In this document: positions 4,624-55,400 of the stretch, piece after piece
How positions within the stretch are numbered: the stretch's first letter is position 1
Layout of the letters: every line of letters starts with the position of its first letter
Source: Bolinopsis microptera
Taxonomy: Eukaryota
Direction of reading: 5' to 3'
Length of the DNA stretch: 64,000 nt
NCBI RefSeq assembly: GCF_026151205.1
Contig: NC_087073.1
Coordinates: 19,356,658 to 19,420,657, forward strand
The notes under the pieces: generated by a model
Told to the model about the DNA's origin: nothing
Database searches by the model: none
The model's input: the letters and a program-made list of their open reading frames with translations, nothing else
Made by a program: the position numbers and the translations under genes

Positions 4624-4635
4624 TACTTCGGCAGT

Positions 4636-20823: not shown

Positions 20824-20968
20824 ACGTGGCGGTGACGTCATGTGGTGGTGACGTCATGTGGTGGTGACGTCATGTGGCGGTGACGTCATGCGGTGGTGAC
20901 GTCATGTGGTGGAGACGTCATGTGGTGGTGACGTCATGTGGTGGTGACGTCATGTGGTGGTGACGTTG
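20824..20968. repeat. 16-bp tandem array GTGGTGACGTCATGTG, 9 units. Seven carry the perfect CRE palindrome TGACGTCA.
   Basis: Perfect TGACGTCA occurrences are 16 bp apart. One unit is a variant AGACGTCA and the last is truncated (TGACGTTG). A CACGTG E-box lies at 20823. Confidence 0.85.
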
Positions 20969-23656: not shown

Positions 23657-23975
23657 AGCAGCTCCAATCTTACATTAGCAGCTCCAATCTTACATTAGCA
23701 GCTCCAATCTTACATTAGCAGCTCCAATCTTACATTAGCAGCTCCAATCTTACATTAGCAGCTCCAATCTTACATTAGCAGCTCCAATCTTACATTAGCA
23801 GCTCCAATCTTACATTAGCAGCTCCAATCTTACATTAGCAGCTCCAATCTTACATTAGCAGCTCCAATCTTACATTATCAGCTCCAATATTACATTAGCA
23901 GCTCCAATCTTACATTAGCAGCTCCAATCTTACATTAGCAGCTCCAATCTTACATTAGCAGCTCCAATCTTACAT
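23657..23975. repeat. 20-bp minisatellite TACATTAGCAGCTCCAATCT, ~16 copies
   Basis: Direct reading. Two variant units occur at ~23875. Confidence 0.9.
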
Positions 23976-24545
23976 TTGTAGATGGTCACAAGATTGCTGA
24001 TAAAGTGTCGAACGTTGTCTGTTTGCCTTTCTACAAAAGGGAGGAGGGGGAGCATGAAACTCTCCTTACACGGCTGAGCGCACATGTTACCTATCTGCTG
24101 CATCGCCTGAAACATATCAGAAGATAAAACACTACCAGAAATTAATAACAAGCAATTGCACAAAGTTTATTCCATTTAAGATAATAATAACGTATTTCGT
24201 TTGATCCATCCGTACAGAATAGTTGGGGGTAACCTATCATTATCTAACCTTAGCACAGAGCATAAGAGTACGAGATATTCTCATGTTAGGGTGATTGCTG
24301 TTTAGGTAGAACAGTTTAGGGTTCATTATTGCGGGAACGAAGAATCTCAGAAACACAAAACTGCTCACTGCCATATACTGTAGGTCCTGATGGTTGTAAT
24401 GGGGATACATGTTTAGAATTCATTCTGGTGAAATCTATGTTTCATATCGAAGAATGAAATCGCGATTTAAAATAAAAAGTGCGAGTCAAAAGTCGAGATG
24501 ATTTTGCCAGGTTTGATTTATCGTAAGAAAATATCTTAGACTTAC

Positions 24546-25144: not shown

Positions 25145-25428
25145 CTGAAAATGTAATAGTACAGGACGTGTTGTACAGCATCATGGACTGATGTGCAATT
25201 GGTGTAAAATAGTAAACCTGTTACATCCAATATACGAGAAGTAGTCAGTCGTCATCATGCACACTCTTATATTATCATTAGCTTACAATTCGTCAGCTTT
25301 TTGAAGGTCACGACCTTTTGATGGTCACGACTCGCGAAATGTAAACTCGTTTTTAAATCCGTTGAATTTGTTGTTCAGTTGATGTCATTTGCAAGCAGGC
25401 TGACCCGTGTATGAACTATGAATCTTAC

Positions 25429-26629
25429 CTCTGAAAATAGTCTCAGGAGTAGATTTCTTAGCCTCAAGAGTGAACAACATGCTCAGGAGCCCCTCTATCT
25501 TTCCCTTTCCAAGGAATATCCTGACCAACATGTAGGCCATCTCCATTCTGTCCGTCATGGCTTCCTCCAACAAAGCTAGCGGAGTAATCCCTGTTCTGGG
25601 TATTCCGTTGGTAAAGTTATCCACCTGGAGGATATTCATTAAATTGTGGATATTGTTATATTTTTGTAGGGTAGCTATTTTTGTACTTTTGTGAATTGAT
25701 ACTTTAGAAAGTAAAACCGAACTTTTCCTAATCCAAACCTCCTCAATAAGTAAGTCAATAAGTGGTTGATAAACTAGGGAAGGTAGGATGGATGCCGTGA
25801 CATATCTTATTTTCATTCTTATTGACCCGGCAGCTTGGTGCCCTATAAAGTCTCTCGGTTTCAACCAGAACCACTGATTATACTCCAGTTTCTTCTCAAT
25901 TCTCTTCAAACTAAACGTGATCTCCCCCATGAACTCATCCTTCCCCACAATGTCCCTGTCCCAGAGGGTCAACCGAACTATCTGGTCTGCAGTATCAGCA
26001 GGAACAGGTAAAGTGGTCATCGCATTCCACCTAGGGAACCGGGTCTGTTTCCTTATCTCCGTCTGATACGAGTTTGATCCGAGAGTTAATATCCCGTATG
26101 GATCGGAAGACCCTGTTTTGTCCTTGGCTGCCAGGTCTCTCGCTTCTGCGATTTTAACATCAAGTTTCGTCTCAGATAGCTTGAACTCAAGTCTCACCTC
26201 GCCTGTCACCTCAGAATCCTTAGTCACCTTCTGAAGAGCAAACCAGCGCTCATCCCCAATATTATAGTCTCTCACCATCTCCTTTTTCGTCAGAGTCACC
26301 TTCCCAATGACGTCATCATACCTCAAATCCTCGTCGTACACGTAAACAGAGAGCGCGAAGAAGTTGCGCTGCACGTGCAGCGTGTACTCCTCCCCCCAGA
26401 AGGGGGACAGGGTCCGGTATATGGTCATTGTCCGTAACACTGTCTGGCCGTCCACCTTGACTACACAATACGGGTCTGATGATTTACTCAACGTGTCCAT
26501 TATGGGAAAGTTTTTGCCCTCCGCTATTTTGAGGAATATGGTTGTTTTGGTGTTGTCACTTTCGAATTCATCGTCTGAATCGTTCATAGAACTTGCTACT
26601 GCTTCCATCAGCCGGTCATTAGTTTTCAT
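25429..26629 (-). CDS. RasGAP (GAP1 family: RASA4/RASAL-like) exon encoding tandem C2 domains and the start of the GAP domain. It ends at the arginine-finger FRG.
   Basis: C2A: SDPYCVVKVDG...YVYDEDLRYDDVIG. C2B: SDPYGILTLG...LWDRDIVGKDEFMGE. The exon ends ...TPETIFRG before a GTAAGA donor, in phase 1. Confidence 0.75.
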
Positions 26630-37308: not shown

Positions 37309-37478
37309 CCTTCCTTAGTATCATGAATTAATAAAAGCAAAGTAAGCAGATAAGGTGTTGGTTACCAATAAGTTCGGATTGTATGAAGTCTGGTAATCAA
37401 TATCCCACGAAGATAGATAAAGTCTTGACATGAATTTTAAACTGCATTAATTATAGTGGATAAGCACCTCCAGCATAG
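37309..37478. repeat. Left arm of an outer ~170-bp inverted-repeat pair enclosing the palindrome
   Basis: Reverse complement of 39478-39650 at ~95% identity. Confidence 0.8.
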
Positions 37479-37830
37479 AGCCGCTCAGTAATTCATACTT
37501 CATTTATATTCATTATATGATTAAAAAAGGTCTGAGGAGAAGAAATAATATACAAGTTAGATCACCAGCTTGAATCTGAATTTGACGCTGATTATCATAG
37601 ACTGCTTTTAATACCCAGCTGTTCTGATTTATAATTGATTGGCTCGCTCATCTAAGCTTCTAAGTTGTGGGATGAGTTTACTCTAATAAGATAAATATAG
37701 GTGACATATTATTACACTGAAACCAAATCTTATTTGATTTGATAATAATGGACAACGCCTCCGCGATCTTATATTAGTCAATATCATTTAAAAGTTGAAA
37801 TAAGAAATCTAAATTAAGAATTTACCATCC

Positions 37831-39192
37831 TTAAGGGGGCATACACCAAAACAGTGGTTTGTGCAGTCCAGACCAATTGACCTCATAGGCAGTTCAGTGA
37901 CCTTCTAGCGCACCGTTTCCACACCAAAAACAATTATTTTGAGAATACCCATTTTTGTAATCGACCATTTCCTGGTTAAGAGTGCAATTTTCGGGAAAAA
38001 TTAATTTGTGGTTGAGACGCTATAAGTTAATCATTTCTTGCGGTATCGGGTTGAAATTTTGCTCGCCGTTTATTCACATCTATTTGAAGGTGTGTGTAAT
38101 ATCTTGATATCGTATCTAAAAAGGCTGGTATGTTATGAATTTTTAAAGTCAAAAAGCTAATATTGTCCTTTTCAGGCTTATTTTGACAAAAAGTCAGTCA
38201 GGGAAGATCGGATTGATTTGATGCTTGACATCAAATTGTTCTCTGAATCCTGGCGCATTTTTTGATGCCCTCAAAAATGCGTTTACTCAACTGGAAAGTT
38301 GATCTTTTGGACCTCAAAGCCAAACAACAAATTTAGGCACATTTTTCGTTTTTAATATTTACCGATTTTTCTAAAATTTTGATAGGAATGTGCTAGTGAC
38401 TTTTTGAAGGGTGCAAAATAACCGCAACTAGCACATTTATATATGAGTTATGAACAACAAAACACCCTAAAATGCTTCCCTTTGAAGTTATGGGAGAAAA
38501 TGTGATTTTTCATCTGCAAAGCCAAAAAATCACATTTTCTCCCATATTTTCAAAGGGAAGCATTTTAGGGTGTTTTGTTGTTCATAACTCATATATAAAT
38601 GTGCTAGTTGCGGTTATTTTGCACCCTTCAAAAAGTCACTAGCACATTCCTATCAAAATTTTAGAAAAATCGGTAAATATTAAAAACGAAAAATGTGCCT
38701 AAATTTGTTGTTTGGCTTTGAGGTCCAAAAGATCAACTTTCCAGTTGAATAAACGCATTTTTGAGGGCATCAAAAACTGCGCCAGAATTCAGAGAACAAT
38801 TTGATGTCAAGCATCAAATCAATCCGATCTTCCCTGACTGACTTTTTGTCAAAATAAGCCTGAAAAGGACAATATTAGCTTTTTGACTTTAAAAATTCAT
38901 AACATACCAGCCTTTTTAGATACGATATCAAGATATTACACACACCTTCAAATAGATGTGAATAAACGGCGAGCAAAATTTCAACCCGATACCGCAAGAA
39001 ATGATTAACTTATAGCGTCTCAACCACAAAATAATTTTTCCCGAAAATTGCACTCTTAACCAGGAAATGGTCGATTACAAAAATGGGTATTCTCAAAATA
39101 ATTGTTTTTGGTGTGGAAACGGTGCGCTAGAAGGTCACTGAACTGCCTATGAGGTCATTTGGTCTGGACAGATTTGGTGTATGCCCCCTTAA
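37831..39192. repeat. 1.36-kb near-perfect palindrome (foldback-like), arms ~675 bp, 13-nt central loop at ~38501-38513
   Basis: 37831 TTAAGGGGGCATACACC...to 39192 is its own reverse complement. Only a handful of substitutions and small indels separate the arms. The whole stretch is non-coding and A/T-rich. Confidence 0.9.
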
Positions 39193-39290
39193 ATTATGTG
39201 GTGCTTTGTAAATCTAGTTCATAGCATAAAATTGCAGGAAACAAACCAGCCACGACGTTTAAAATATGAAATGAAATGTCCACTACCACC

Positions 39291-39410
39291 AAGGACTCGT
39301 TTAACGGGTGATACTCGTAAAATATCTGTTCCATATATTGGAACAGGACCGTCGACGAGTCCAACTCGGCGCGCGTCCTGGTAGGTTGTAAACCTACAAG
39401 GACTCGTCTG
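39291..39410. repeat. Inverted-orientation copy of the 10.5-kb repeat-family end
   Basis: ~90% reverse-complement identity to 10485-10600. It contains the AGGTTTGTAAACCT mini-hairpin. Confidence 0.6.
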
Positions 39411-39477
39411 ATATTATGTACTTGAATATTAAATAAAATATACTGAAACTGAAATTTTTTCCGGTAATTTCATAGAA

Positions 39478-39650
39478 TAATGCTGGAGGAGCTTATCCAC
39501 TATAATTAATGCAGTTTAAAATTCATGTCAAGACTTTATCTATCTTCGTGGGATATTGATTACCAGACTTCATACAATCCGAACTTATTGGTTACCCACA
39601 CCTTATCTGCTTACTTTGCTTTTATTAATTCATGATACTAAGGAAGGAAC
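39478..39650. repeat. Right arm of the outer inverted-repeat pair
   Basis: See the left arm at 37309-37478. Confidence 0.8.
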
Positions 39651-42770: not shown

Positions 42771-43517
42771 TGCTTTTTGCTGATGAAGACTCTGTTCCAC
42801 GAGTACCGAAAGTCGTAGACTTTATAATCGTATTTTATCCCTTAAGCCGTTGATGGAAACATATAATAGTAATAATAACTATAATAAACATTATCATATT
42901 AGTGGACTTTCTTGGTTGGGCTCTATCAATTTATCTTGATCGATCCAATCGTAGTAGTCTGGAACGAGTTAAATTTTAAGTTTGATGTATAAATTGAAAT
43001 TCTTAAGTTTCAACTAATATTCCAGCGATATATATCGCTGTCAGAATGAAGGTGAGCGATTAGACGGGCGACTACGGAGATGTCGGCCAAACACCCGACC
43101 AGTTGCAATTATCAACTAACCTGGAAGATAACAGTTGACGATCTGATCGATAAGCTGCAGTTAGCTGCAGTCTTGCTAGGAGAGTAGGGGGCGTGATACT
43201 ATAGCACAATCAATAATTTTTACAATTAGTTCATGACGCAGTTAGCATGACACAATACCATAAGATTATTCTAATTACAGTCGCAATTAGCGACAGTAAG
43301 TTAGATATAACATGTTAGTAATACATTAGTTAGTTATATGTAACATGCAAGTTGTACAAGTGAACGCGCTATTATTGCAGTTAGTAAATTGACAAACAGG
43401 TGAAATATTCAAATTCTCTGACGGCTTACCTTGTTTGACAGTGATATATCGCTGGAACGCTATACTGAACCGTATTTCTCATCATATGGAGGCCACGAAA
43501 ATCACGCGGACATAGTC

Positions 43518-44783
43518 AGCTGCAAGTACTAGTAGTAGTACCAGCTCAAGAACATTGTCAGGTGCAAGTACCAGTAGTAGTACCAGCTCAAGGACATTGT
43601 CAGGTGCAAGTACCAGTAGTAGTACCAGGCACCGGCTCAAGGACATTGTCAGGTGCAAGTACCAGTAGTAGTACCAGGCACCGGCTCAAGGACATTGTCA
43701 GCTGAAAGTACCAGTAGAAGTACCAGCTCAAGGACATTGTCAGGTGCAAGTACCAGTAGTAGTACCAGCTCAAGGACATTGTCAGCTGAAAGTACCAGTA
43801 GTAGTACCAGCTCAAGGACATTGTCAGGTGCAAGTACCAGTAGTAGTACCAGCTCAAGGACATTGTCAGGTGCAAGTACCAGTAGTAGTACCAGCTCAAG
43901 GACATTGTCAGGTGCAAGTACCAGTAGTAGTACCAGCTCAAGGACATTGTCAGGTGCAAGTACCAGTAGTAGTACTAGCTCAAGGACATTGTCAGGTGCA
44001 AGTACCAGTAGTAGTACAGCTCAAGGACATTGTCAGGTGCAAGTACCAGTAGTAGTACCAGCTCAAGGACATTGTCAGGTGCAAGTACCAGTAGTAGTAC
44101 CAGCTCAAGGACATTGTCAGGTGCAAGTACCAGTAGTAGTACTAGCTCAAGGACATTGTCAGGTGCAAGTACCAGTAGTAGTACTAGCTCAAGGACATTG
44201 TCAGCTGAAAGTACCAGTAGTAGTACCAGCTCAAGGACATTGTCAGGTGCAAGTACCAGTAGTAGTACCAGCTCAAGGACATTGTCAGGTGCAAGTACCA
44301 GTAGTAGTACTAGCTCAAGGACATTGTCAGGCTGCAAGTACCAGTAGTAGTACAGCTCAAGGACATTGTCAGCTGAAAGTACCAGTAGTAGTACCAGCTC
44401 AAGGACATTGTCAGGTGCAAATACAAGTAATAGTACCAGCTCAAGGACATTGTCAGGTGCAACTACCAGTAGAAGTACCAGCTCAAGGACATTGTCAGGT
44501 GCAAGTACCAGTAGTAGTACCAGCTCAAGGACATTGTCAGCTGAAAGTACCAGTAGTAGTACCAGCTCAAGGACATTGTCAGGTGCAAATACAAGTAATA
44601 GTACCAGCTCAAGGACATTGTCAGGTGCAACTACCAGTAGAAGTACCAGCTCAAGGACATTGTCAGGTGCAAGTACCAGTAGTAGTACCAGCTCAAGGAC
44701 ATTGTCAGGTGCAAGTACCAGTAGTAGTACCAGCTCAAGGACATTGTCAGGTGCAAGTACCAGTAGTAGTACCAGCTCAAGGA
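43518..44783. repeat. 42-bp minisatellite, ~30 copies, with higher-order variant structure. It is open in all six frames.
   Basis: Unit CAGGTGCAAGTACCAGTAGTAGTACCAGCTCAAGGACATTGT. Variants GCAAATACAAGTAATAGT and GCAACTACCAGTAGAAGT recur as a 4-unit block repeated twice at 44366-44700. Indels at ~44010 and ~44330-44350 break the frame. Confidence 0.9.
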
Positions 44784-44947
44784 AAGCCGCATCACAGTTC
44801 ACAGATATCAAATTGGAAATACAGACACAAAATCTCGATGACGATCCAGCAGAGTCTGCCAGGAACTTGATCATCAAACTAAAGGAACGGGTTACTGATT
44901 TAATGACCAGGTATTACGAGCTTACCGGGTCCCGGAAATTGTCTTGA
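44366..44947 (+). CDS. Possible coding read-through of the 42-bp array. It encodes (SGASTSSSTSSRTL)n and runs into a unique 55-aa tail.
   Basis: In the + frame the repeat reads Ser/Thr-rich 14-mers. After the last unit it continues as RKAASQFTDIKLEIQTQNLDDDPAESARNLIIKLKERVTDLMTRYYELTGSRKLS-stop. The unit length is divisible by 3. Confidence 0.25.
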   Translation: MSAESTSSSTSSRTLSGANTSNSTSSRTLSGATTSRSTSSRTLSGASTSSSTSSRTLSAESTSSSTSSRTLSGANTSNSTSSRTLSGATTSRSTSSRTLSGASTSSSTSSRTLSGASTSSSTSSRTLSGASTSSSTSSRKAASQFTDIKLEIQTQNLDDDPAESARNLIIKLKERVTDLMTRYYELTGSRKLS

Positions 44948-46995: not shown

Positions 46996-47715
46996 CTTTT
47001 CTTTGTCTTTGAAGATGGTAAAAATAGTATTAATTCAAGATAATGATATTGTTGAAGGAATACTGGCAGGAAGATAATCTGTTGTCACAGTATTTATACC
47101 CAAATCCAGCACGTGCAAGTTTCAAGTCAGTTGCGCGTGCAAATTGATTTTATCGAGGGGGTTGGTATGGTAACAAGAATCTCGGCTGCTGTGTGAGCAT
47201 GGTTGGTCTGTTTGACCTGGGAAAGGGAAGGTAGCAACCAGATTCATGTAAACCCACATCTATCAATAAAAATCTTCAAGCTACGCTACTCTGTACTCGC
47301 TAAAACACATTAGCCCATAAATTACTTAATTACACGCTTTAGAAATTATCATCACAGGACAACATTACACTTAAAAACTTTGAACATAACACGAGGAAAT
47401 ATGGACAGAACTGAACAAGAACCACATTCGAAGACTGAAAAATCTGGAGGACTCTGCAACCCAGGAATGAACTATTCACTTATCATCGCTCAATTATCAT
47501 CAATAATCGGTTTGGTATCGACGTTACAAACTTTGATTTTCCGACTTTAAAGCTGAACTCTAAATGCTTAATGAACACACTTGCAGGTACCACCCGTATT
47601 CACACGCAGACCTGAGTTTAGTAATTTCCGATACAAGATTGGGGACGGGTTCTATAAACAAACAAACAAACAAATAATATATTATATTATATCGAATATT
47701 ATTACAATTAAGAAC

Positions 47716-47900
47716 CACAGTGGAAAATGTTGGGATTTTAATTTCGCAGAAAACGATATAAAAATAATCGTACGATTATCGACGATAATCGTCGCGCGCG
47801 CGTTAAACGCACGATAATCGTCTAATCTGACGATAATCGTCATATTTGGCGAATAACGCTATTTCGCGACGTTTATTAGGCGATAATGAGCGATATCACG
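47716..47900 (+). repeat. Transib left TIR plus a subterminal CGATAATCG/ACGATTATCG motif array
   Basis: CACAGTGGAAAATGTTGGGATTTTAATTTCGCAGAAAACGATA... is followed by at least 6 copies of CGATAATCG(T). Confidence 0.7.
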
Positions 47901-48729
47901 ATAATCACACAATAAATCATGGAAATAAAATGTATTTGTTATTTCATGTAACGAAGGAAGTATTTCGGTTATGCTTTAATATGGAAATCAGAAATCGGAT
48001 TCATATTTACAGTCTACTGGTAATGTTCCGCAAGCTTCGTAATCGTAGTGAACGCAAAACGAATGAAATTGAAAATGTCATGTTTCACAATGAAATTTGA
48101 TACTTTAATTTATTGTTATCGATAAGATTAGTTACATATATGATATAAGACAGCGGTAGTAAATATGAAATATTTATCATCTATCTAAGTTTGGCACGCA
48201 GCGCGCGGGCCGGTATCTTTTGTATAATGTATAATATGTAGTTTCCTAGTGTAATGTTTAACCCGAGAAGTAATTGCCACAGTGAAAAATTAGATTTTAT
48301 AAAATTATATTATTCATTTTAACTATTGTGTTTAGTGAACAAATTTTAGCGATCATTGAAAACATTTGTCAAATTGAATTTAAATTAATGTCTAAGCGGC
48401 GGGCCAGCGCGTTATTTTGAGCCGCGCACCAAAACCGATTTTAATGGACTTAGAATTCATAATACGAATCGAGCGCCTGTAATGTCGTTCGAGACAGATA
48501 CGCTCTCCTTGGTAACGAGCCAAGTCTATTGTTTACATTTTGTACGTGATAAATCTGATCGGGCCTTGTGATAGGAATTTAGTAGTCGGCAGTCAGAACT
48601 TTAATGACGATTATTTAGATACATGAAATTGTGTAATTTGCAATCATAACTGTTTTGACTTTTGAACCACGCAACTAAATTACTCTTGGTAATCAGTAAA
48701 AGTAATAACACATTCACAATAGAACTCAA

Positions 48730-48824
48730 ATGGATAATTCGAGACTGGTAATGTTCGCCGGGCTTACTGAGACGAATCAGCTGAAGCCCCTGGGCTCAAA
48801 TGAGCTCAGGGGGAAATGCTGGCA
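48730..48824 (+). CDS. RAG1-like transposase exon 1 (start codon)
   Basis: ATG in the context CTCAAATGG. Encodes MDNSRLVMFAGLTETNQLKPLGSNELRGKCW. Donor GTGAGT in phase 2. Confidence 0.45.
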
Positions 48825-48974
48825 GTGAGTTATCTTACCAGTTACCTCAATTATGAATATTCAAACATAGCATCAAAAAATTTCATTTTGAACAACACTT
48901 TAATAAAAAGATTTTATCCGTTGAGAAACTAATAATCACCAATTCAATCCGATTTTATTGAATCATAATTTCAG

Positions 48975-49051
48975 ACACTTTCGAGCACGGTACCCCGGGC
49001 TGAAGGAGACAGCGATCAGGCAGGCCATCGCCAAGTTCTGCTATATCGAGG
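48975..49051 (+). CDS. RAG1-like transposase exon 2
   Basis: Acceptor TTTCAG. Encodes HFRARYPGLKETAIRQAIAKFCYIE. Donor GTAAGA in phase 1. Confidence 0.5.
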
Positions 49052-49198
49052 GTAAGAAATTACATAATGAGTTTGGCTCTAACACACTTGATTAATTTTG
49101 TAGTTCAAATTAATGTATGGTAATCTACCAAGTCAATACGTTACATTTGAGCTTGATTCGGTGACTTGAGGAACTGCCCATAAGACAAAATATTGCAG

Positions 49199-49362
49199 AG
49201 AGTGCTGTTACCCCAGCACAATGCCGGGAGGTGCGGCTGCGGATGAAAAAATACGCAGCCGACGAGAAACACCGGCTGAAGAGAAGAAAGCTGGATCAGG
49301 AGCCGCAGCAGAGCACCAGCTCAGGGACCCAAACGGATCCCATACACGCTCTGTCTTGTAAG
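49199..49362 (+). CDS. RAG1-like transposase exon 3, with nonamer-binding-domain-like basic region
   Basis: AADEKHRLKRRKL resembles RAG1 RRAQKHRLRELKL. Donor GTAGGG in phase 0. Confidence 0.55.
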
Positions 49363-49471
49363 GTAGGGTCTCGTTTCTCAATTACCACCACATATTTGGT
49401 ATTATACTTATTCTAACTGCCACGTATTTTCCTCATAATTGTGATGACTACATCCACCAACTTCTAATTAG

Positions 49472-49596
49472 GATTGCGAGACCGCCTCAATGAGGCACCA
49501 AGTAGAGTTGCATCAGGCTAAGCTGGCGGAAATGAGGACCGAGCTGCTGCTGCGGGAGTGCAGCTCACCAGTTCAGTCCCAAGTGGCTGAAAGGAG
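49472..49596 (+). CDS. RAG1-like transposase exon 4
   Basis: ASMRHQVELHQAKLAEM resembles RAG1 ARNEHRQADELEAIM. Donor GTAAGA in phase 2. Confidence 0.55.
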
Positions 49597-49711
49597 GTAA
49601 GACTGATTGATAATATTTCTACATGTTCCAATATTATTTTCTCATCTCTTTTCATACTCATTGGGAAGAATTCACCCGACAGTTAAATCTTGATTTGTAA
49701 CTTTATTTCAG

Positions 49712-49828
49712 TACGGCGGTGATATTTACACCACAGCGGGAGTTTGCTAGCTCTTCGGCCCTCCCGACTCTCGAGGTCAGACCGTCACCGAGGTCGAGAG
49801 TCGCCTCACAAGCCTCGTACGCCTCAAG
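49712..49828 (+). CDS. RAG1-like transposase exon 5 (Ser/Pro-rich linker)
   Basis: Acceptor TTTCAG and donor GTGAGA. The open phase-2 frame is consistent with its neighbours. Confidence 0.45.
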
Positions 49829-49953
49829 GTGAGAAGTCATTATAAGAAACTTTTTGCGTTTTGTTTCTAGATGTTTGAGCAAGTAAGAATGATGATTAAC
49901 AAGAGCGCAATGCACACTTTCTGCTATCATTAACAACTGATTTTCACTTTCAG

Positions 49954-49996
49954 TGCGAGCGATTGTTTTGGACCAGAGTCCATTATTGAGAGCCGG
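49954..49996 (+). CDS. RAG1-like transposase exon 6 (short)
   Basis: Acceptor TTTCAG and donor GTGAGA. Ends in phase 0. An alternative reading runs to the stop at 50067. Confidence 0.35.
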
Positions 49997-50597
49997 GTGA
50001 GACAGGCGGCCCAGAAAAGGGCTAGAGATTCAGCCAAGAAAACTTTCAGTTTCAAAGATTTTAGATAGATTTATTGTGTTCTCTGAGAAGATTTATCATC
50101 ATTTTGCAATTAAACTTTCAACTAAACTTGTAATTAAACTTTCAACTAAACTTGTAATTAAACTTGTAACTAAACTTTTCACTGAACTTGTAACTATGAA
50201 TCGATGTATAATGTATATTGTATAATGTATCTAATGTGTAATGTATTTAATGTATAGTGTAGGTAATGTAAAAAGTGACAGATAAATACCCAGAACTTGC
50301 AGGCAGTTTTCACGCTCATTGATAATCAGAACTGAATTTTACAACATATTAACATTTAATTTCCCTGAACTGCAATGTATTTATCTGTCAAAGCCCCAAA
50401 CGGTCTATCAGCCTCCACGCGGCTTGGGGTGGGTGGTGTATTGATGTATTTCTGTAATTATCGTACACTAGCGAATGATTCCAAAAAAAGTATTTTCATT
50501 TGTCTTCGGAAGTTACTTAACTCTTGTTGCATGAAACCTAGAGGCACAGTAATCAAATTCAAGTAAAATTCATATTTTAGATCGTATCATGAAACAG

Positions 50598-50746
50598 TGC
50601 CCTTGCGTTGTCTGCAATGGTGAGAAAAGAACTGAACGTACCATAAAGGAGCATCTGGTCGAGTATGGACATTCAAAGAAAACTTTGCTGACAGATTTTC
50701 TCGAGCATTCGACACCAGATGACAAATTGTTCCACTATGCATTGAG
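50598..50746 (+). CDS. RAG1-like transposase exon 7 (CPC-x2-C...H-x5-H zinc-finger-like)
   Basis: Encodes CPCVVCNGEKRTERTIKEHLVEYGH. Donor GTAATT in phase 2. Confidence 0.5.
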
Positions 50747-50851
50747 GTAATTTAGCATTAGTAAATCGTCACAGAGATAAGTCAAACAAAGTTTAAAAAT
50801 AAACTCCATGGCAGTAAGTTGAGCAGATAATTCATCCATTTAACCCAACAG

Positions 50852-51023
50852 GAAAATGCTGGAGAAGAGTTTCTCACAAGGAACAATCGTCGAAGTGAAA
50901 GGTTTACCGGGTAAACCCCTAGTGATTACTTCGATAATCAAGCCTCAGAAAAATATAGCTACACCTGCAGACAGCACGAAGAGGAAACACGCTAAAGTGT
51001 TCAAGGATATCGTAGAGAGCCAG
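50852..51023 (+). CDS. RAG1-like transposase exon 8
   Basis: Acceptor CAACAG and donor GTATCT. Ends in phase 0. Confidence 0.5.
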
Positions 51024-51148
51024 GTATCTATCCTAAATAGTGTTATCAGGTTATTTTTAATCTGTAATAATGTGCAGACCAGATTGCTTATTGATCAACC
51101 AGAAATGGTGATGGTGGTGAAAATAAATAATGGATGCACTGTTTGCAG

Positions 51149-51326
51149 GCTGAATCAAGTTGTTCGAAATGTCCCGAACATGAGATCGATATGGTAACGA
51201 AACGAATAAGAACAGCTCAGATAAATTCGTTATCAAAAGAAGAACGTCAATACATCAGTGCCTCTACTGGAGTAAAGAGTATAGAACCAATTGACGCTCT
51301 TCATGTTGCCATGTTCAAAGCAGAGT
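51149..51326 (+). CDS. RAG1-like transposase exon 9
   Basis: Acceptor GTTTGCAG and donor GTGAGT. Ends in phase 1. Confidence 0.5.
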
Positions 51327-51432
51327 GTGAGTGCTTGAGTTTAAATTCTAACTGTTGATATAAAACATAGATATGAATACCGAACTAACATATCATGAGT
51401 AAGGCAGATTCTCATATTGATAAACTTTCCAG

Positions 51433-51542
51433 CGAACACGGGGACATCCAATGTTCGTAACAATCTGCGACCTATGCTGAAGAAATTTGATATCAAATTA
51501 GAATCAGAGAAAGAGATAAAAGCAGTTGAAGAGTCTTATACT
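51433..51542 (+). CDS. RAG1-like transposase exon 10
   Basis: Acceptor TTTCCAG and donor GTAAGT. Ends in phase 0. Confidence 0.5.
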
Positions 51543-51667
51543 GTAAGTTCTGATCTTAGTCACATACACTACTTGCTGATCTCGCGATAAATTTAGCACT
51601 TAAATCTAATACAGTCTGTCATCACTAAAAATCAGTTAAATTCTCAATTCTCATTGAACATCCTAAG

Positions 51668-51827
51668 GTGAGTTACATGAGTGCAATGGTGTCTCTGTCG
51701 CACAAAGCGGCGGCTCATGACAAGAACGAGACCAAAAGCGGCGATATTCTGGCACGGAGAACACCAGTGGCCTACTGCGATGGCCAAGAATTGCTGACAA
51801 AAACACTTGTAACGTTGAAGAATACAG
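51668..51827 (+). CDS. RAG1-like transposase exon 11 (first catalytic Asp candidate)
   Basis: YMSAMVSLS resembles RAG1 ALVSALMDM. PVAYCDGQEL resembles RAG1 KESCDGMGD (D600). Confidence 0.6.
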
Positions 51828-51941
51828 GTGATTAAGTTTTCTCTATTTCTGTTCGTCATAGTATTAACATTAGGATAGAGGCTGTCTTGTTTATGAATTA
51901 AGTTTTTATCAGCTGACCAAAATCGGCAATTAATGTTGCAG

Positions 51942-52126
51942 GACAGTTACAAATCGGGAGCGATAAAAAGATTTACACAAAAATTTTTATCGATGCAGAC
52001 ATAAAGTCGACAAAAGTTGCGATCAATGTCCTAAATCAACCTAATTGCAACAGCTCCTATGCCCACGCTATGTTTGTGTACACAGAGGCTCCTGACCATC
52101 AGCGAAACATGGATGTGATTTTCAAG
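51942..52126 (+). CDS. RAG1-like transposase exon 12
   Basis: Acceptor TGTTGCAG and donor GTATAT. Ends in phase 0. Confidence 0.55.
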
Positions 52127-52236
52127 GTATATTTCTTTATAAAATGTAAAATTTGATCTGCCTTTCGTGAAATTATAAACCCAACGTCATATAAGTATAG
52201 ACCTGATGACACACAAATGTAAGGTTGACACCACAG

Positions 52237-52478
52237 GTGGTAAATCGGGAGTTAATACAGCTAAAAACACTGTCATTCTGTGGAGCTGATGTTAAGCTGA
52301 TGTTGTGTGCAGACACCAAAGCACTGTGGGCTGTGTTAGGAATGGGCAGCAACGGGACTTATCCATGCCCAATGTGTGAGATACACAAAGACCTCATGAA
52401 AGTTCCACGAGCACAGAGATCAGCTGCCAAACCCCGGACCTTTGCTGGAATCAAGCGAAACTTCGAAGACAACATGAG
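52237..52478 (+). CDS. RAG1-like transposase exon 13 (second catalytic Asp plus CxxC zinc ligands)
   Basis: VKLMLCADTKALWAVL resembles RAG1 KPLCLMLADESDHETL (D708). TYPCPMCE resembles RAG1 VYICTLCD (C727/C730). Confidence 0.7.
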
Positions 52479-52596
52479 GTAATGTAGTTTCAAAATTGAA
52501 GAACTTAATCCACTCTCTGCTTGCATCGTAAGGAATTGAGTAAACCCTGTTAGGTACTCTGTTATGAAGGACTTGACCCTGAATTTCGTTTTCCAG

Positions 52597-52723
52597 GATG
52601 ACCCAGTGTAACCCGAGATCCCAAGCGAAATTCCTGAATGTTGCATCGCGACCTCTCACAGACTGTTTCGGGAATGATAATGATGATCTGATTAACTGGG
52701 TCGCTGTTCCGTTCTTGCACATA
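52597..52723 (+). CDS. RAG1-like transposase exon 14
   Basis: AKFLNVASRPLTDCFG resembles RAG1 AKPFIETVPSIDALHC. Donor GTATGT. Confidence 0.5.
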
Positions 52724-52817
52724 GTATGTGACACGAATTGAAAAACTGTTGATGTTCATTCCTGTTTCAGTCGTGCTTTATTTATTTGAATTAGCTAATT
52801 TTCATCGTGGAAAACAG

Positions 52818-52995
52818 TCACGAAACCTTAAGCTTTCTCAGACCATCAAAGTGGGGACTGTCCTGTGGACTGAGTACGGTAAATTGTGCGAGGACATTGA
52901 CTTTGTGCTAGCTTGCAACGTCACGGACGGATTTCTCCCCAACTGTTATAGCAGCACAACTGACTTCGGTGCCATGATCCTCCGCATACAGCAAG
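52818..52995 (+). CDS. RAG1-like transposase exon 15 (weak acceptor; start approximate)
   Basis: Open frame ...TVLWTEYGKLCEDIDFVLACNVTDGFLPNCY... Donor CAAG|GTACTT in phase 1. Confidence 0.45.
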
Positions 52996-53104
52996 GTACT
53001 TGATAAATGTCTTGTTCCAAAACAATACGAGGGTTTTCGAGTAACAATTAAAATTAGAAAGTATTTTCGTTAGATGGTTACAATAAACAAATTCTCTTCT
53101 TAAG

Positions 53105-53285
53105 GTAATCGTGTAGCCACGAAATGTAACAGTGGCCCGCTCTCCTCTCAATATGAGAAGTTTCTGAGGGGAATTAATGTAATACCTGAGGCTTATCATG
53201 GTGTGTCGCTGACGGGTGTTAGAGCTGGATACCTGCTGAAAAGTGACGACTCCCAATTCTGGAGGGAACAGTTTTACCAAAATGA
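53105..53285 (+). CDS. RAG1-like transposase exon 16
   Basis: KCNSGPLSSQYEKFL resembles RAG1 CQYSFNSQRFAELL. Donor GTGAGT in phase 2. Confidence 0.55.
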
Positions 53286-53396
53286 GTGAGTTGCGTTTAA
53301 TCAGAACAGTTAATCTCATGAACAAATAACGAATGAGTTGATAAATCTCCTTTGCAATTGAAAAGTTACCACGTGAATGACAGGGTCTGTATTCAG

Positions 53397-53595
53397 GAAT
53401 TTGAGACCACAGGACAAGGTGCATTTTCAGCATCGACTCTTAGCCCTCGACAGGATTAAGACCGCCTACAAAGATCTCTTGGTTGTTGGAGGCAAGAGCG
53501 GGAAGGCAGAACCTCAGGATATAAAGACTCTGATACAGTCGAGAGATATCTTTTTAGAGGAGTACAGGAAATTTGGACAGTCATCGTCTATCAAG
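53397..53595 (+). CDS. RAG1-like transposase exon 17
   Basis: Acceptor ATTCAG and donor GTATTG. Ends in phase 0. Confidence 0.5.
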
Positions 53596-53756
53596 GTATT
53601 GTTGTAGCTTGTAGCGAAACTGGCATTCTTCCAACTCCCAAGATAGCCTGCAACAATTTAGGATTCGTGCTTAAGTCTGATATTGGAAAATTCTAGTCTG
53701 ATTAATTGTAGTAATTCTCCAGCATCGTTTTCTTAACAACCTTTCAATTTAACTAG

Positions 53757-53880
53757 ATCCACATGCTCGAGGATCACTTTGTCGACCAGATCATACTGTG
53801 GGGGATGTTATCGGGCTCATTTAACGAGCAAGGAGGAGAGAGCTGTCATTCCCTTTTCAAGCGACATGAACACCTGACTA
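53757..53880 (+). CDS. RAG1-like transposase exon 18 (His pair plus catalytic Glu)
   Basis: HMLEDHFVDQII resembles RAG1 HKTLAHVPEII (H937/H942). GGESCHSLFKRHEH resembles RAG1 GNESGNKLFRRFRK (E962). Confidence 0.7.
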
Positions 53881-54056
53881 GTACGAAAATCAGCTAATTT
53901 AAGACAGTTTGATCAACTCATTTGGAGACAGAAGTTTAAGTCAACTCGTTATTAGCATTAATCACGTTTAAAGTGTACAAATAATCTCTTTCCCCCTTTC
54001 AATTTTCATGCTAGACAGTCACTATACAGTAGAATCTTAACAGCGACAATTTTCAG

Positions 54057-54151
54057 ATCACATTCGCAACGAAGAGGAAAGAGTGACTAAGAAATGTGAA
54101 ATAGCCACCAGGAAATATCTCCTTAAACTTAAATCACGGCAAAAGTCATGA
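54057..54151 (+). CDS. RAG1-like transposase terminal exon
   Basis: Acceptor TTTTCAG. Encodes NHIRNEEERVTKKCEIATRKYLLKLKSRQKS followed by TGA. The summed exon length is 2721 nt, giving 907 codons. Confidence 0.5.
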
Positions 54152-54839
54152 GCGGACACTATTATGATATTTGAAACACATCTTTCGGAAAACGCTGCCT
54201 ATTCATTATTCTACTAAAAAGTTTTCGTAAGCAGCGACTGCAACAAGATTCGCGCACGCGCGTTTTTATCGCCGCGCGAAGCTTTTAAAATTTTGATTAC
54301 GTGTCAAGAGTGTGCGATTAACACAATGCTAGACCTGTACGAAACCTTATTGAAGCTCTTAAAACCGATTAACGTGCAGTTGTCAAGCATAATTCCGAGT
54401 TTTCCGGTCAAAAATGGATTCAAAACGACTGAATAGTGAAAATAGTTTCAATGAAACTCGTTTATTCAGCAAACATGGAGAATAACGCTCCTTACAGCTC
54501 GATGCATTGTTTTAAGTGACTTTCAGGTATTTGAAACTGAAATGCAAGCAAGTCAGCTTAATTCTGACCCATTGATGAGGCATCAAATATTAAATAATGG
54601 TAAAGAGACCGGTTCCTCCCAAAACCTAGTTTTAGAACCTACTTAGATGTCAGACTTGGGTGAACCATGTAGCTGTTAAGATATATCAACTTATTTGATA
54701 TGTGCACGCATTCTACATGAGTTACTGATCATACTCAAATCACAACCACCATGCTAATAATATATTAATAAGCAAATATCATACTTGGAGTTTTATCCTC
54801 GATGGGCGAGCAATAATTGGACGTTTCTCGTCATTCTGA

Positions 54840-55020
54840 CGTTTATCGTACGATAGAGAGGCGAGAAACGATTATCGTGCGAATATCGACGATAATCGTC
54901 GGGATGTATAATAATTGCGCGCAGCAGACGATTATCGTCGATTATCGTCAAACTGCACGATTAACGTACGATTATTGTGCGCGACTAAAATCTGCGAAAT
55001 GGCCCATATTTTCCACTGTG
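54840..55020 (-). repeat. Transib right TIR plus a subterminal CGATAATCG motif array (reverse orientation)
   Basis: The reverse complement reads CACAGTGGAAAATATGGGCCATTTCGCAGATTTTAG...CGATAATCGACGATAATCGTC... Confidence 0.7.
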
Positions 55021-55400
55021 GAACGCGCCTTGCGCGCGCGCAATTTCTGTCGAACTGAACAGTAAAAAGATTTGCTTACTATAGTTTTTACAATTTCGCG
55101 CTTTACGAACTCATCATCCGGTGAATTGGCATTTTGGATATTTCATGCTTGCTGTGAATATTTTAACCAAGTTTGGCAACATTTTTATCTTCAATGGTAT
55201 CATCAGTTGGCCTTAATATATGGCTTTGTATTTGTACGTGTTTAGAATAAATAAGCGACTAAATTTTTAGATAAAGATCAAATCTTATCACGACAAAATA
55301 AATAGAAAACAGCTTCTATAATCTTCAGAGGTGTATTGAAAATTTTCATCGCATCATGAAGATTTCAAATCGGAGGGTATTTCTTTCAAAAGTTGTTACG

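What the first reader, a model, noticed from the sequence alone, without database searches (positions are those of the whole stretch)
47716..47760. Terminal heptamer CACAGTG followed by A/T-rich spacer. The two ends differ, so an RSS-like 12/23 asymmetry is possible.
The left end reads CACAGTG-GAAAATGTTGGG-ATTTTAATT. The right end (reverse complement) reads CACAGTG-GAAAATATGGGC-CATTTCGCAGA-TTTTAGTCG. The ends are identical for 13 bp and then diverge. This is what one would expect if the two ends carried different spacer lengths between the heptamer and a nonamer-like A/T element, as in RSS12/RSS23 and as reported for ProtoRAG/Transib TIRs. The flanking direct repeat is GAAC (4 bp) when ends are placed at the heptamers. 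Transib normally gives 5 bp, so either the ends are offset by 1 bp or the TSD has one mismatch (AGAAC vs GAACG).
Basis: inference. Interest (0 to 1): 0.55.

Follow-up and report, generated by a model that had tools for sequence, protein, structure and literature searches.

The report
Ctenophore Chapaev transposon with asymmetric ends
The flagged sequence is the left tip of an apparently intact 7.3-kb "Chapaev" jumping gene, whose enzyme is a distant cousin of the antibody-gene recombinase RAG1 and whose two tips differ by a conserved 10-bp offset resembling the 12/23 signal asymmetry used in antibody gene assembly.

Summary
Window 47716..55020 is a 7,305-bp DNA transposon with identical 13-bp termini (CACAGTGGAAAAT), a 4-bp target duplication (GAAC), subterminal ACGATAATCG repeats and an open multi-exon transposase gene.

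It is not a Transib or ProtoRAG element. Its remote homologs carry Pfam DUF1280, the Chapaev transposase family, some with a RING and a RAG1-like N-terminal zinc finger. The protein has the C(2)C, LH and H(4)H motifs. A second family also shows a 4-bp duplication (ACAC).

The transposase is still RAG1-like. An AlphaFold model of its Bolinopsis homolog best matches the RAG1 core (Foldseek E=2e-10). A Chapaev profile aligns with RAG1 at 97.7% probability, including the nonamer-binding-domain motif.

The end asymmetry is real and conserved. Left ends place a 16-bp A/T-rich block (GATTTTAATTTCGCAG) 11 bp after the heptamer, and right ends place it 21 bp after. This holds in both families with both ends known. 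Right ends of two further families show the long form.

The spacing is 12/22 rather than 12/23, and the extra 10 bp are themselves conserved. Whether this enforces left-right pairing is inferred, not shown. The element is a new member of a known kind, and its end layout is of interest for RAG evolution.

The parts
47712..47715 (.). Left copy of the 4-bp target site duplication (GAAC)
   Evidence: It matches 55021..55024. A 4-bp TSD is also seen in sister element L023 (ACAC).
47716..47728 (+). Left terminal inverted repeat, 13 bp exact (CACAGTGGAAAAT). The heptamer CACAGTG is 47716..47722. The A-rich segment GAAAATGTTGG (47723..47733) follows the heptamer and is conserved between families.
   Evidence: (pair I13).
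47734..47749 (+). Conserved 16-bp A/T-rich block GATTTTAATTTCGCAG at positions 19-34 of the left end. It lies 11 bp after the heptamer (the short form).
   Evidence: The position is the same in L006 and in the family D left end (L023 8686).
47763..47907 (.). Left subterminal array of ACGATAATCG / CGATTATCG motifs in both orientations. These are presumed additional transposase-binding sites.
   Evidence: 22 matches in the window against 2.5 expected, almost all within about 200 bp of the two ends. Also.
48925..49630 (+). Upstream (alternative 5') coding exons similar to the N-terminus of P0003. The start codon was not defined.
   Evidence: tblastn of P0003.
50586..54139 (+). Transposase gene of 13 exons, most with AG/GT splice borders and none with an internal stop or frameshift.
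- Exon coordinates: 50586-50747, 50850-51023, 51149-51325, 51432-51545, 51671-51826, 51941-52126, 52237-52479, 52598-52723, 52842-52994, 53104-53286, 53398-53598, 53757-53876, 54053-54139.
- Catalytic and signature residues in the 692-aa composite: D277, D347, C365-x2-C368, L442-H443, H625-x4-H630, E651.
   Evidence: Homologs. Pfam. Structure and profile links to RAG1.
54840..54978 (.). Right subterminal array of ACGATAATCG-type motifs.
54977..54992 (-). The same A/T-rich block at the right end (GATTTTAGTCGCGCAC on the minus strand), at positions 29-44. It lies 21 bp after the heptamer (the long form).
54993..55002 (-). Right-end-specific 10 bp (CCATTTCGCA on the minus strand) that create the offset. 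The motif ATTTCGCrG is conserved in the right ends of all four families seen.
55008..55020 (-). Right terminal inverted repeat, 13 bp exact. The heptamer is 55014..55020.
55021..55024 (.). Right copy of the 4-bp target site duplication (GAAC).

Best explanation
Window 47716..55020 is an apparently intact, probably autonomous cut-and-paste DNA transposon of the Chapaev lineage. Chapaev belongs to the CMC / 'CMCT' group and is the sister group of Transib and RAG. The host is a ctenophore genome.

Shown:
- The termini are exact 13-bp repeats starting with CACAGTG, flanked by a 4-bp target duplication, with subterminal repeat arrays at both ends.
- The element carries an open 13-exon gene for a DDE transposase with the C(2)C, LH and H(4)H signature.
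- Other copies, 94-98% identical, occur in marine metagenomes.
- The fold and profile of the transposase are RAG1-like across the whole core, including a region that aligns with the RAG1 nonamer-binding domain.
- The two ends are built alike: heptamer, then a roughly 10-bp A-rich segment, then a 16-bp A/T-rich block, then subterminal repeats. The block sits 10 bp (one helical turn) further in at the 3' end of the element than at the 5' end. This offset is conserved between families whose transposases are only about 50% identical.

Inferred:
- The transposase nicks at the flank/CAC border.
- It inserts with a 4-nt stagger.
- It reads the heptamer with its catalytic core and the A/T-rich block with its N-terminal NBD-like module.
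- The one-turn offset makes the left and right ends non-equivalent, so that a left-right pair is the preferred synaptic partner. This would be analogous to the 12/23 rule.

I put about 90% on the identity as a Chapaev transposon and about 80% on the asymmetry being a conserved, selected feature. I put about 35-45% on it acting as a pairing rule of the 12/23 kind.
For: Boundaries and TSD
- The termini and flanking repeat are shown.
- A second 4-bp TSD is seen in L023.

Gene
- The exons are open, and most have AG/GT borders.

Family
- The profile search gave 184 hits.
- All 10 long hits scanned carry Pfam DUF1280. Three of them also have an N-terminal RING.
- P0014 and P0024 also carry a RAG1-N-terminus-like zinc finger.
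- DUF1280 is the top Pfam hit of the window protein itself: E=1.3e-3 and 18.9 bits. It scores 23.7 bits for P0002 and 38.3 bits for P0007.
- Literature: DUF1280 corresponds to Chapaev transposases and clusters with RAG1 (PMC3985635).
- Literature: Chapaev hallmarks are a 3-4 bp TSD, CAC..GTG termini, and C(2)C, LH and H(4)H motifs (PMC4079192). All are present in the window protein.

RAG1 likeness
- The AlphaFold model of P0002 has pLDDT 80.
- Its best Foldseek hits in the PDB are RAG1 core chains, at E=2e-10 over about 480 columns. HzTransib follows at about 3e-3.
- hhalign of the Chapaev alignment A5 against the RAG1 alignment A8 gives probability 97.7%, E=1.5e-12 and 732 columns. Window KGLPGKP aligns opposite RAG1 KGGRPRQ.
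- The PDB profile search hit the RAG1 N-terminal domain at E=0.0016.

Other copies
- L002-L013 and L022 are 94-98% identical to the window element.

Asymmetry
- MAFFT of 8 ends puts one 10-bp gap at the same place in all 3 left ends relative to all 5 right-type ends.
- 6 of 8 left-right pairwise alignments need a 9-10 bp gap at that position (one places it five bases earlier).
- Right-right pairs need no gap over the first 35 nt and match at 30-33 of 35 positions.
Against: - Only two families (W and D) have both ends known, and D is a single copy with a degenerate right heptamer (CACGGTC).
- L014 has unknown orientation.
- An alternative register aligns the exact 10-mer ATTTCGCAGA of both window ends with a 5-bp offset in the other direction. 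Two of eight pairwise alignments prefer it.
- The 'extra spacer' is conserved in sequence, which fits an additional binding motif better than a passive spacer.
- The left ends also have 9-23 extra A/T-rich bases after the block, including TATAAAA. This could be promoter-related and not linked to synapsis.
- The window protein on its own falls below the DUF1280 gathering threshold.
- With the shallow ctenophore-only alignment, only the region around the catalytic E aligns with RAG1 (E=0.024).
- The N-terminal 'Chapa' zinc finger and RING of other Chapaevs are not present in the window protein.
- No empty site was available, and no transposition or binding data exist.
Confidence: 0.75

Rival explanations
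1. The element is a Transib / ProtoRAG-type (RAG-family) transposon with RSS12/RSS23-like ends, and its true TSD is 5 bp (ends offset by 1 bp or one mismatch).
For: - The heptamer CACAGTG equals the RSS consensus.
- The fold is RAG1-like.
- Some Transib and RAGL-A families have TIRs with 12/23-like or 10-bp asymmetry (PMC8355894; bioRxiv 10.1101/2023.08.20.553239).
Against: - The TSD is 4 bp in two independent insertions, and 5 bp fails in both.
- Homologs are DUF1280/Chapaev proteins. No Pfam RAG1 family hit was found.
- A PDB sequence search with the family profile did not find RAG1 or Transib cores.
- No second gene such as a RAG2-like kelch protein is present in the element.
- The Foldseek match to HzTransib is much weaker than the match to RAG1 and covers only the catalytic half.
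Confidence: 0.04
2. It is a Chapaev transposon, but the left/right difference is not a spacing rule. The right end simply carries one more copy of a transposase-binding motif (ATTTyGCAG). Alternatively or additionally, the left end carries promoter sequence. Under this reading, end discrimination, if any, works as in En/Spm, P or piggyBac, through different numbers or arrangements of sites.
For: - The extra 10 bp are conserved in sequence and repeat the motif found once in the left end.
- Left ends have an extra TATA-like stretch after the block.
- Dense subterminal repeats typical of CACTA-type elements lie at both ends.
Against: - The offset is exactly 10 bp in both families with both ends known, and the long form is invariant in length in four families.
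- The layout of heptamer, A-rich segment, 10-bp asymmetry and A/T-rich block is the one described for PflRAGL-A, whose RAG1L has an NBD.
- The Chapaev profile aligns with the RAG1 NBD motif.
Confidence: 0.4
3. The difference between the ends is a neutral indel in this copy or family and has no function.
For: Only a handful of ends were available. Many transposon ends drift inside the terminal 13 bp.
Against: The same indel at the same position separates left from right ends in family D, whose transposase is only 43-74% identical per exon. The long form is kept in family C (32-67% identical) and in L014. The internal non-coding DNA of these families no longer aligns.
Confidence: 0.07
4. It is a classical En/Spm (CACTA) or Mirage element, not a Chapaev element.
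For: - The 13-bp TIR of the form CAC-N5-GAAAA resembles the En/Spm TIR (own knowledge).
- Subterminal repeats are present.
- There is a weak Transpos_assoc (PF13963) hit on the N-terminal zinc finger.
Against: - There is no hit to Transposase_21 or DUF1258.
- All relatives scanned are DUF1280 proteins.
- The TSD is 4 bp rather than the 3 bp (En/Spm) or 2 bp (Mirage) I recall for those groups. Only the 2-5 bp range across CMCT is documented here (PMC12730594).
- There is a single transposase gene.
Confidence: 0.03

Closest known systems
Chapaev DNA transposons (Kapitonov & Jurka 2007). They are the Chapaev branch of CMC in Yuan & Wessler 2011 and a clade of the Transib superfamily in Kapitonov & Koonin 2015. 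Pfam DUF1280.
   Same: - The termini are CAC...GTG and the TSD is 4 bp.
- The transposase is a DDE enzyme with C(2)C, LH and H(4)H motifs.
- The nearest detectable relatives are DUF1280 proteins, some with RING and Chapa domains.
- The host is an animal.
   Different: - The window protein lacks the Chapa zinc finger and RING. It has a small CPC..C/H..H finger instead.
- It scores just under the DUF1280 threshold.
- The gene is split into at least 13 exons.
- Neither paper in the searched library that holds both 'Chapaev' and 'ctenophore' appears to be about this (neither was opened).
- I found no published description of a conserved 10-bp left/right offset in Chapaev ends. The Repbase Reports could not be read.
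PflRAGL-A (hemichordate RAG-like transposon) TIRs and the RAG1 NBD (bioRxiv 10.1101/2023.08.20.553239)
   Same: - The layout is the same: an RSS-like heptamer, a conserved A-rich segment of about 10 bp next to it (TR2), a spacer with 10-bp length asymmetry between the 5' and 3' ends, and an A/T-rich nonamer-like block.
- The transposase has an NBD-like region. Window GLPGKP and sister-family GGRP align with RAG1 GGRPR.
   Different: - RAGL-A makes 5-bp TSDs, carries a RAG2-like gene and has a CCGHC C-terminal tail. None of these is present here.
- The basic residue after GRP is missing here.
- The extra 10 bp are conserved in sequence.
- The block is T-rich on the top strand.
V(D)J recombination signal sequences (12RSS/23RSS) and RAG1
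   Same: - The heptamer CACAGTG is identical.
- Two classes of ends differ by about one helical turn.
- The enzyme is predicted to share the RAG1 core fold (Foldseek E=2e-10) and the D, D, CxxC, HxxxxH, E arrangement.
   Different: - The spacing is 11/21 (12/22) rather than 12/23.
- There is no ACAAAAACC nonamer.
- The ends are transposon ends with a 4-bp TSD.
- There is no RAG2.
- No pairing rule has been demonstrated.
Transib families with asymmetric 12/23-like TIRs (Transib5 of Drosophila; Transib2/N1-N3 of Anopheles; Kapitonov & Jurka 2005 as summarised in PMC8355894)
   Same: The element has CAC-heptamer ends with an A/T-rich distal element at two different spacings in one element, and the transposase is RAG1-related.
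   Different: Transib makes 5-bp TSDs. HzTransib matches the model only weakly and only over the catalytic half. The protein family is different (DUF1280).
En/Spm (CACTA) elements of plants
   Same: It has a 13-bp TIR beginning with CAC and containing GAAAA. Dense, unequal subterminal repeat arrays lie at both ends. It belongs to the same CMC/CMCT group.
   Different: From my own knowledge, En/Spm makes a 3-bp TSD and has two proteins (TnpA/TnpD), with the transposase in Pfam Transposase_21. None of these applies here.

Membership tests
Chapaev (CMC / Transib-superfamily) transposons | Target site duplication of 3-4 bp | tested here: met
   The window copy has GAAC/GAAC. Sister element L023 has ACAC/ACAC. 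5 bp fails in both. The criterion is from PMC4079192.
Chapaev (CMC / Transib-superfamily) transposons | Termini 5'-CAC ... GTG-3' | tested here: met
   The ends are CACAGTG...CACTGTG. The same holds for the ends in L006, L014, L016 and L019 and for the L023 left end. The L023 right end is a degenerate CACGGTC.
Chapaev (CMC / Transib-superfamily) transposons | [quoted passage not shown] | tested here: met
   The composite has D277, D347, C365-x2-C368, L442-H443, H625-x4-H630 and E651. These are nearly invariant columns in the 34-sequence alignment A5.
Chapaev (CMC / Transib-superfamily) transposons | Match to Pfam DUF1280 (PF06918), which the literature equates with Chapaev transposases | tested here: inconclusive
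   DUF1280 is the top Pfam hit of the window protein but falls below the cut-off (E=1.3e-3, 18.9 bits against 25). P0002 scores 23.7 bits. The intermediate relative P0007 passes at 38.3 bits, and all 10 long remote homologs pass. The equivalence is from PMC3985635.
Chapaev (CMC / Transib-superfamily) transposons | N-terminal 'Chapa' zinc finger, with or without a RING (characteristic of described Chapaevs, Kapitonov & Koonin 2015) | tested here: not met
   It is present in remote homologs P0014, P0024, P0028 and P0030. It was not found in the window protein or in P0001-P0003, whose N-terminus is a short CPCxxC...H finger with a weak Transpos_assoc hit. The upstream exons at 48925-49630 have no Pfam hit.
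Chapaev (CMC / Transib-superfamily) transposons | Phylogenetic placement inside the Chapaev clade of CMCT transposases | not tested
   No reference Repbase sequences were available. Placement rests on HMM neighbours only.
Transib / RAG-like (RAGL, ProtoRAG) transposons | 5-bp target site duplication | tested here: not met
   AGAAC versus GAACG in the window, and AACAC versus ACACT in L023.
Transib / RAG-like (RAGL, ProtoRAG) transposons | Transposase recognisable as RAG1/Transib core at sequence level (Pfam RAG1 PF12940 or a direct HMM hit to RAG1/HzTransib) | tested here: not met
   There is no RAG1 Pfam hit. The family profile finds no RAG1 or Transib chain in the PDB. Similarity appears only at superfamily level.
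Transib / RAG-like (RAGL, ProtoRAG) transposons | RAG2-like (kelch) gene convergent with the RAG1-like gene (RAGL only) | tested here: not met
   There is no other long ORF with a Pfam domain in the element.
RSS-like 12/23 end organisation | Heptamer CACAGTG at the cleavage border of both ends | tested here: met
RSS-like 12/23 end organisation | Conserved A/T-rich nonamer-like element present at both ends | tested here: met
   GATTTTA(A/G)T is conserved in all 8 ends. However, it is T-rich on the strand where the RSS nonamer ACAAAAACC is A-rich.
RSS-like 12/23 end organisation | Two spacer classes, 12±1 and 23±1 bp, one at each end | tested here: inconclusive
   The spacers are 11 and 21 bp to GATTTTA, or 12 and 22 bp to ATTTTA. 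The difference is 10 bp, not 11. It is consistent in families W and D and in four right-end families. An alternative register exists.
RSS-like 12/23 end organisation | Spacer sequence only weakly constrained | tested here: not met
   The additional 10 bp (CCATTTCGCA) are almost invariant across four families.
RSS-like 12/23 end organisation | Cleavage or synapsis requires one end of each class (the 12/23 rule) | not testable with these tools
   This needs biochemical or cellular assays.

The most novel reading that the evidence does not exclude
Chapaev transposases use an NBD-like module and a one-helical-turn difference in heptamer-to-A/T-block spacing (12/22) to force left-right end pairing. 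Under this reading, the organisation of heptamer, TR2-like segment, asymmetric spacer and nonamer-like block, together with a 12/23-type rule, was already present before Chapaev split from Transib/RAG. It would survive today in a ctenophore, far outside the lineages where RAG-like elements have been studied. Convergent evolution of the same solution would be the alternative and would also be of interest.
Probability: 0.3. Interest if true: 0.8.

Novelty: new member of a known kind. Interest (0 to 1): 0.6.

Why it matters
The origin of the 12/23 rule and of nonamer recognition is debated. Candidates include a 'Transib seed' and a RAGL-A ancestor, and current models place asymmetric TIRs and an NBD in the first RAG-like or Transib element.

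This Chapaev family lies outside Transib+RAG in the published trees. It shows the same end layout, with a conserved 10-bp offset, and a transposase whose profile aligns through the RAG1 NBD motif.

If the offset is functional, the design principle is older and more widespread than RAG/Transib. The window copy is intact and has near-identical relatives in ocean metagenomes, so it offers a possibly active enzyme on which the idea can be tested directly.

If the offset is not functional, the finding is simply a well-preserved new Chapaev family in a ctenophore genome.

Tried and rejected
- A megablast against phage records gave nothing and was not relevant.
- A PDB sequence search with the shallow ctenophore profile gave only noise.
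I used the P0002+P0001 alignment instead.
- MAFFT misplaced the single-exon fragments in alignment A2, so I discarded it.
- Exact-protein look-ups for the Bolinopsis proteins, three window ORFs and a host gene found nothing. As a result the host species could not be named and the Bolinopsis loci could not be read.
- A word-index search with concatenated short end-proximal ORFs returned only P0001.
- End-pattern scans of viral contigs and prokaryotic genome contigs found nothing.
- L015 (309-kb contig) holds only a fragment of a related gene with no clear ends.
- L004/L005 lack both ends, and L022 is 5'-truncated at the left end.
- I rejected Transib/ProtoRAG because the TSD is 4 bp and the protein family differs.
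- I rejected En/Spm and Mirage on TSD length and protein family.
- I rejected a domesticated host gene because of the intact TIRs, the TSD and the many near-identical copies.
- hhalign of the ctenophore-only alignment against RAG1 is weak. The RAG1 link therefore rests on the deeper Chapaev alignment and on the structure model.

Full report
**1. Observation**

The quoted sequences are exact.
- The left end is at 47716.
- The right end finishes at 55020.
- CACAGTGGAAAAT occurs once on each strand at these two places, against 0.12 matches expected by chance. None of 100 shuffles gave three matches.
- The ends are identical for 13 bp and then diverge.
- The flanks are GAAC|element|GAAC.

The coordinates in the finding cover only the left tip of a 7,305-bp unit.

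**2. What lies between the ends**

The window is eukaryotic DNA with 32-42% G+C and split genes.

Both subterminal regions are packed with ACGATAATCG / CGATTATCG motifs. There are 22 matches in the window against 2.5 expected, and almost all lie within about 200 bp of the two tips.

On the plus strand there is a gene of at least 13 exons between 50586 and 54139.
- No exon has a stop or frameshift, and most have AG/GT borders.
- Further upstream exons lie at 48925-49630 and match the N-terminus of a metatranscriptome-like protein, P0003.

The only named relatives are two 'uncharacterized proteins' of the ctenophore Bolinopsis microptera. They are 74-75% identical to the spliced window protein in the alignment. 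The host is therefore probably a ctenophore. I could not name the species, because look-ups of window ORFs and of the Bolinopsis proteins found nothing.

**3. Other copies**

Exon-sized ORFs found by the exhaustive profile search led to contigs from TARA and other marine metagenomes. These carry the same family at 94-98% nucleotide identity (L002-L013, L022).
- Several copies are rearranged. L004-L007 share a different sequence after element position 3811. L022 has an internal deletion, a nested insertion and a truncated left tip.
- This is the usual picture of a young transposon family with one or a few intact masters. The window copy looks like one of those.

**4. Family**

The profile search returned 184 proteins.
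- All 10 long ones scanned carry Pfam DUF1280. Three of them also have an N-terminal RING.
- P0014 and P0024 also show a zinc finger that resembles the RAG1 N-terminus.
- DUF1280 is also the best Pfam hit of the window protein itself, although it falls under the threshold at 18.9 bits. P0002 scores 23.7 bits and the intermediate relative P0007 scores 38.3 bits.
- Majorek et al. equate DUF1280 with Chapaev transposases and place it next to RAG1 (PMC3985635).
- The published Chapaev hallmarks are a 3-4 bp TSD, CAC...GTG termini, and C(2)C, LH and H(4)H motifs (PMC4079192). All are present here.
- Kapitonov & Koonin treat Chapaev as a clade of the Transib superfamily (PMC4411706). Kojima groups EnSpm, Mirage, Chapaev and Transib as 'CMCT', with 2-5 bp TSDs (PMC12730594).

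A complete element of a sister family D (L023 8686..14708, 6,023 bp) has a transposase 43-74% identical per exon. It is flanked by ACAC|...|ACAC. The 4-bp duplication is therefore real.

There is no RAG2-like or other second gene.

**5. Relation to RAG1**

The relation is real but at superfamily level.
- The AlphaFold model of P0002 (pLDDT 80) has RAG1 core chains as its 19 best Foldseek hits in the PDB. The best has E=2e-10 over about 480 aligned columns. HzTransib follows at about 3e-3 over about 230 columns.
- hhalign of a 34-sequence Chapaev alignment that includes the window protein (A5) against 12 vertebrate RAG1 sequences (A8) gives probability 97.7%, E=1.5e-12 and 732 aligned columns.
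- That alignment puts window FIDAD opposite RAG1 CDGMGD, and LCAD...CPMC opposite GYDE...CTLC. It puts window KGLPGKP opposite KGGRPRQ, the start of the RAG1 nonamer-binding domain. Sister families read GGRP at this position.
- The N-terminal part of that alignment comes from the Chapa-bearing relatives, not from the window protein.
- The ctenophore-only alignment by itself matches RAG1 only around the catalytic glutamate (E=0.024).

**6. The ends**

I collected three left ends.
- The window.
- L006.
- Family D (L023).

I collected five right-type ends.
- The window.
- L022.
- Family C in L016 and L019 (identical sequence; transposase 32-67% identical per exon).
- Family D (L023).
- L014, from a fourth family and of unknown orientation.

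All right-type ends read CACAGTG-GaAAATnTnGnC-cATTTCGCrG-ATTTTA-(a)nTTTGCAG and then run into CGATAATCG repeats. They are 30-33/35 identical to the window right end, although the interior DNA of these families no longer aligns.

All left ends read CACAGTG-GAAAAtgTTGg-GATTyTA-ATTTCGCAG.

MAFFT places one 10-bp gap at the same position in every left end relative to every right end. Six of eight left-right pairwise alignments need a 9-10 bp gap at that position (one places it five bases earlier). Right-right pairs need no gap in the first 35 nt.

The 16-bp A/T-rich block therefore starts at position 19 in left (5') ends and at position 29 in right (3') ends. The spacers are 11/21, or 12/22 if the 9-mer is taken as ATTTTAATT.

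A second difference compensates for the first. Left ends have 9-23 extra A/T-rich bases after the block (TATAAAAAT in the window). As a result the subterminal repeats begin at nearly the same distance from both tips, at positions 49 and 46.

**7. Caveats on the asymmetry**

- Only two families have both ends known.
- Family D is a single, slightly decayed copy.
- The exact 10-mer ATTTCGCAGA is present in both window ends with a 5-bp offset in the other direction. Two pairwise alignments prefer that register.
- The extra 10 bp are conserved and repeat a motif present once in the left end. 'One more binding site' is therefore as valid a description as 'longer spacer'.
- The left-specific TATA-like stretch may be the promoter.

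**8. Mechanism (inferred)**

This is a cut-and-paste DDE transposon.
- The transposase recognises the heptamer and the adjacent A-rich segment with its core.
- It recognises the A/T-rich block with the N-terminal NBD-like module, and perhaps the subterminal repeats with its zinc finger.
- It cuts at the flank/CAC border and integrates with a 4-nt stagger.
- The one-turn offset of the block makes the ends non-equivalent. It most plausibly favours a left-right synapse, as the pivoting NBD dimer does for 12/23 RSS pairs (mechanism summarised in bioRxiv 10.1101/2023.08.20.553239).

None of these steps has been tested.

**9. Comparison with known systems**

The layout is heptamer, conserved A-rich segment of about 10 bp, 10-bp asymmetric spacer and A/T-rich block. 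This is the layout reported for the hemichordate RAGL-A transposon, whose RAG1L has a GRPR/K NBD.

12/23-like TIR asymmetry is also known in a few Transib families (PMC8355894). That review calls those the only known transposons with such asymmetry. The later RAGL-A work adds RAGL families to the list.

I found nothing in the searchable library on such asymmetry in Chapaev. Only two held papers contain both 'Chapaev' and 'ctenophore', and neither appears to be about this (I did not open them). The original Repbase Reports on Chapaev are not in the library and may describe the ends.

**10. Verdict**

The element is a new, well-preserved member of a known kind, a Chapaev transposon.

The family assignment (Transib/ProtoRAG, 5-bp TSD) and the exact 12/23 reading do not hold up.

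The interest lies in the possibility that RSS-like end asymmetry plus an NBD-like domain predate the Chapaev/Transib split. That remains a hypothesis resting on a small number of ends.

Noticed in passing
window 48278-48290 (also L004 7555, L005 2613/7498, L006 601, L022 7693): An internal, plus-strand TIR-like sequence (CACAGTGAAAAAT in the window, CACAGTGAAACAT in other copies) lies about 560 bp inside the left end. It is conserved in every copy of the family. It could be a relic or alternative left end, or it could be chance.
   Followed up: partly
L004 10668, L005 6920/10668, L006 3796, L007 1464 (element position 3811 = window 51526): Several metagenome copies share a breakpoint inside exon 4 and then continue into a common sequence that is absent from the window. 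In L005 the 5' part is also tandemly reiterated. This looks like a rearranged or recombinant subfamily at high coverage (contigs labelled 311x-443x).
   Followed up: partly
L022 6913-17984: This copy of the window family has a truncated left tip (the first 17 bp are replaced) and a mutated right heptamer (AACAGTG). It also has an internal deletion (element 3798-5522) and a nested insertion of about 5 kb carrying a 495-aa ORF on the opposite strand.
   Followed up: partly
window 47750-47762; L023 8720-8745: Left ends, but not right ends, have an extra A/T-rich stretch after the 16-bp block (CGATATAAAAATAATCG in the window). It looks like a TATA box and may be the transposase promoter.
   Followed up: no
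window 50080-50208: A 12-bp-period minisatellite (TTGTAATTAAAC / TTTCAACTAAAC) lies in an intron of the transposase gene.
   Followed up: no
window 1-1155: A 171-bp tandem repeat (satellite) of about 6.7 units at 98-99% identity sits at the start of the window.
   Followed up: no
window 1611-3140 (+) and 4636-5865 (-): There are ORFs with reverse transcriptase (RVT_1) and endonuclease/exonuclease/phosphatase domains on opposite strands. These are non-LTR retrotransposon remnants. Similar RT genes flank the Chapaev copies in L004 and L015.
   Followed up: no
window 37309-39647: A large, nearly perfect palindrome has 645-bp arms (37866-38510 / 38525-39169, 99%). It lies inside a second inverted pair of 168 bp (37309-37476 / 39480-39647, 98%). 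This is a foldback-type structure.
   Followed up: no
window 10480-10582 and 39301-39399: Two 100%-identical inverted segments (56 nt and 42 nt) lie 28.7 kb apart, and a partial copy lies at 10130-10173. They are probably copies of a short repeat or MITE with GC-rich termini.
   Followed up: no
window 43508-44902: A 42-bp tandem repeat of about 30 units overlaps open reading frames on both strands (43653-44870 +, 43975-44877 -). It may encode a repetitive protein.
   Followed up: no
window 20806-20982 and 23573-24052: A 16-bp tandem repeat built on TGACGTCA (a CRE-like palindrome) and a 20-bp tandem repeat of about 24 units.
   Followed up: no
window 61462-63912 (-), 25385-26629 (-): These are host-type ORFs. 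One is an 816-aa ORF with a family A DNA polymerase domain (E=1e-109). The other is a 414-aa protein with two C2 domains.
   Followed up: no
L014 150-290: The fourth-family end in L014 is followed internally by a GC-rich tandem repeat (GTGCCGCCTCA-like units). No coding similarity was found, so it may be a non-autonomous derivative.
   Followed up: no
protein cluster of P0074: The 90%-identity cluster of a 53-aa exon-4 ORF of this transposase family also lists a 711-aa 'PBP1A family penicillin-binding protein' from an Acidimicrobiales MAG. This is probably a clustering artefact or contamination.
   Followed up: no
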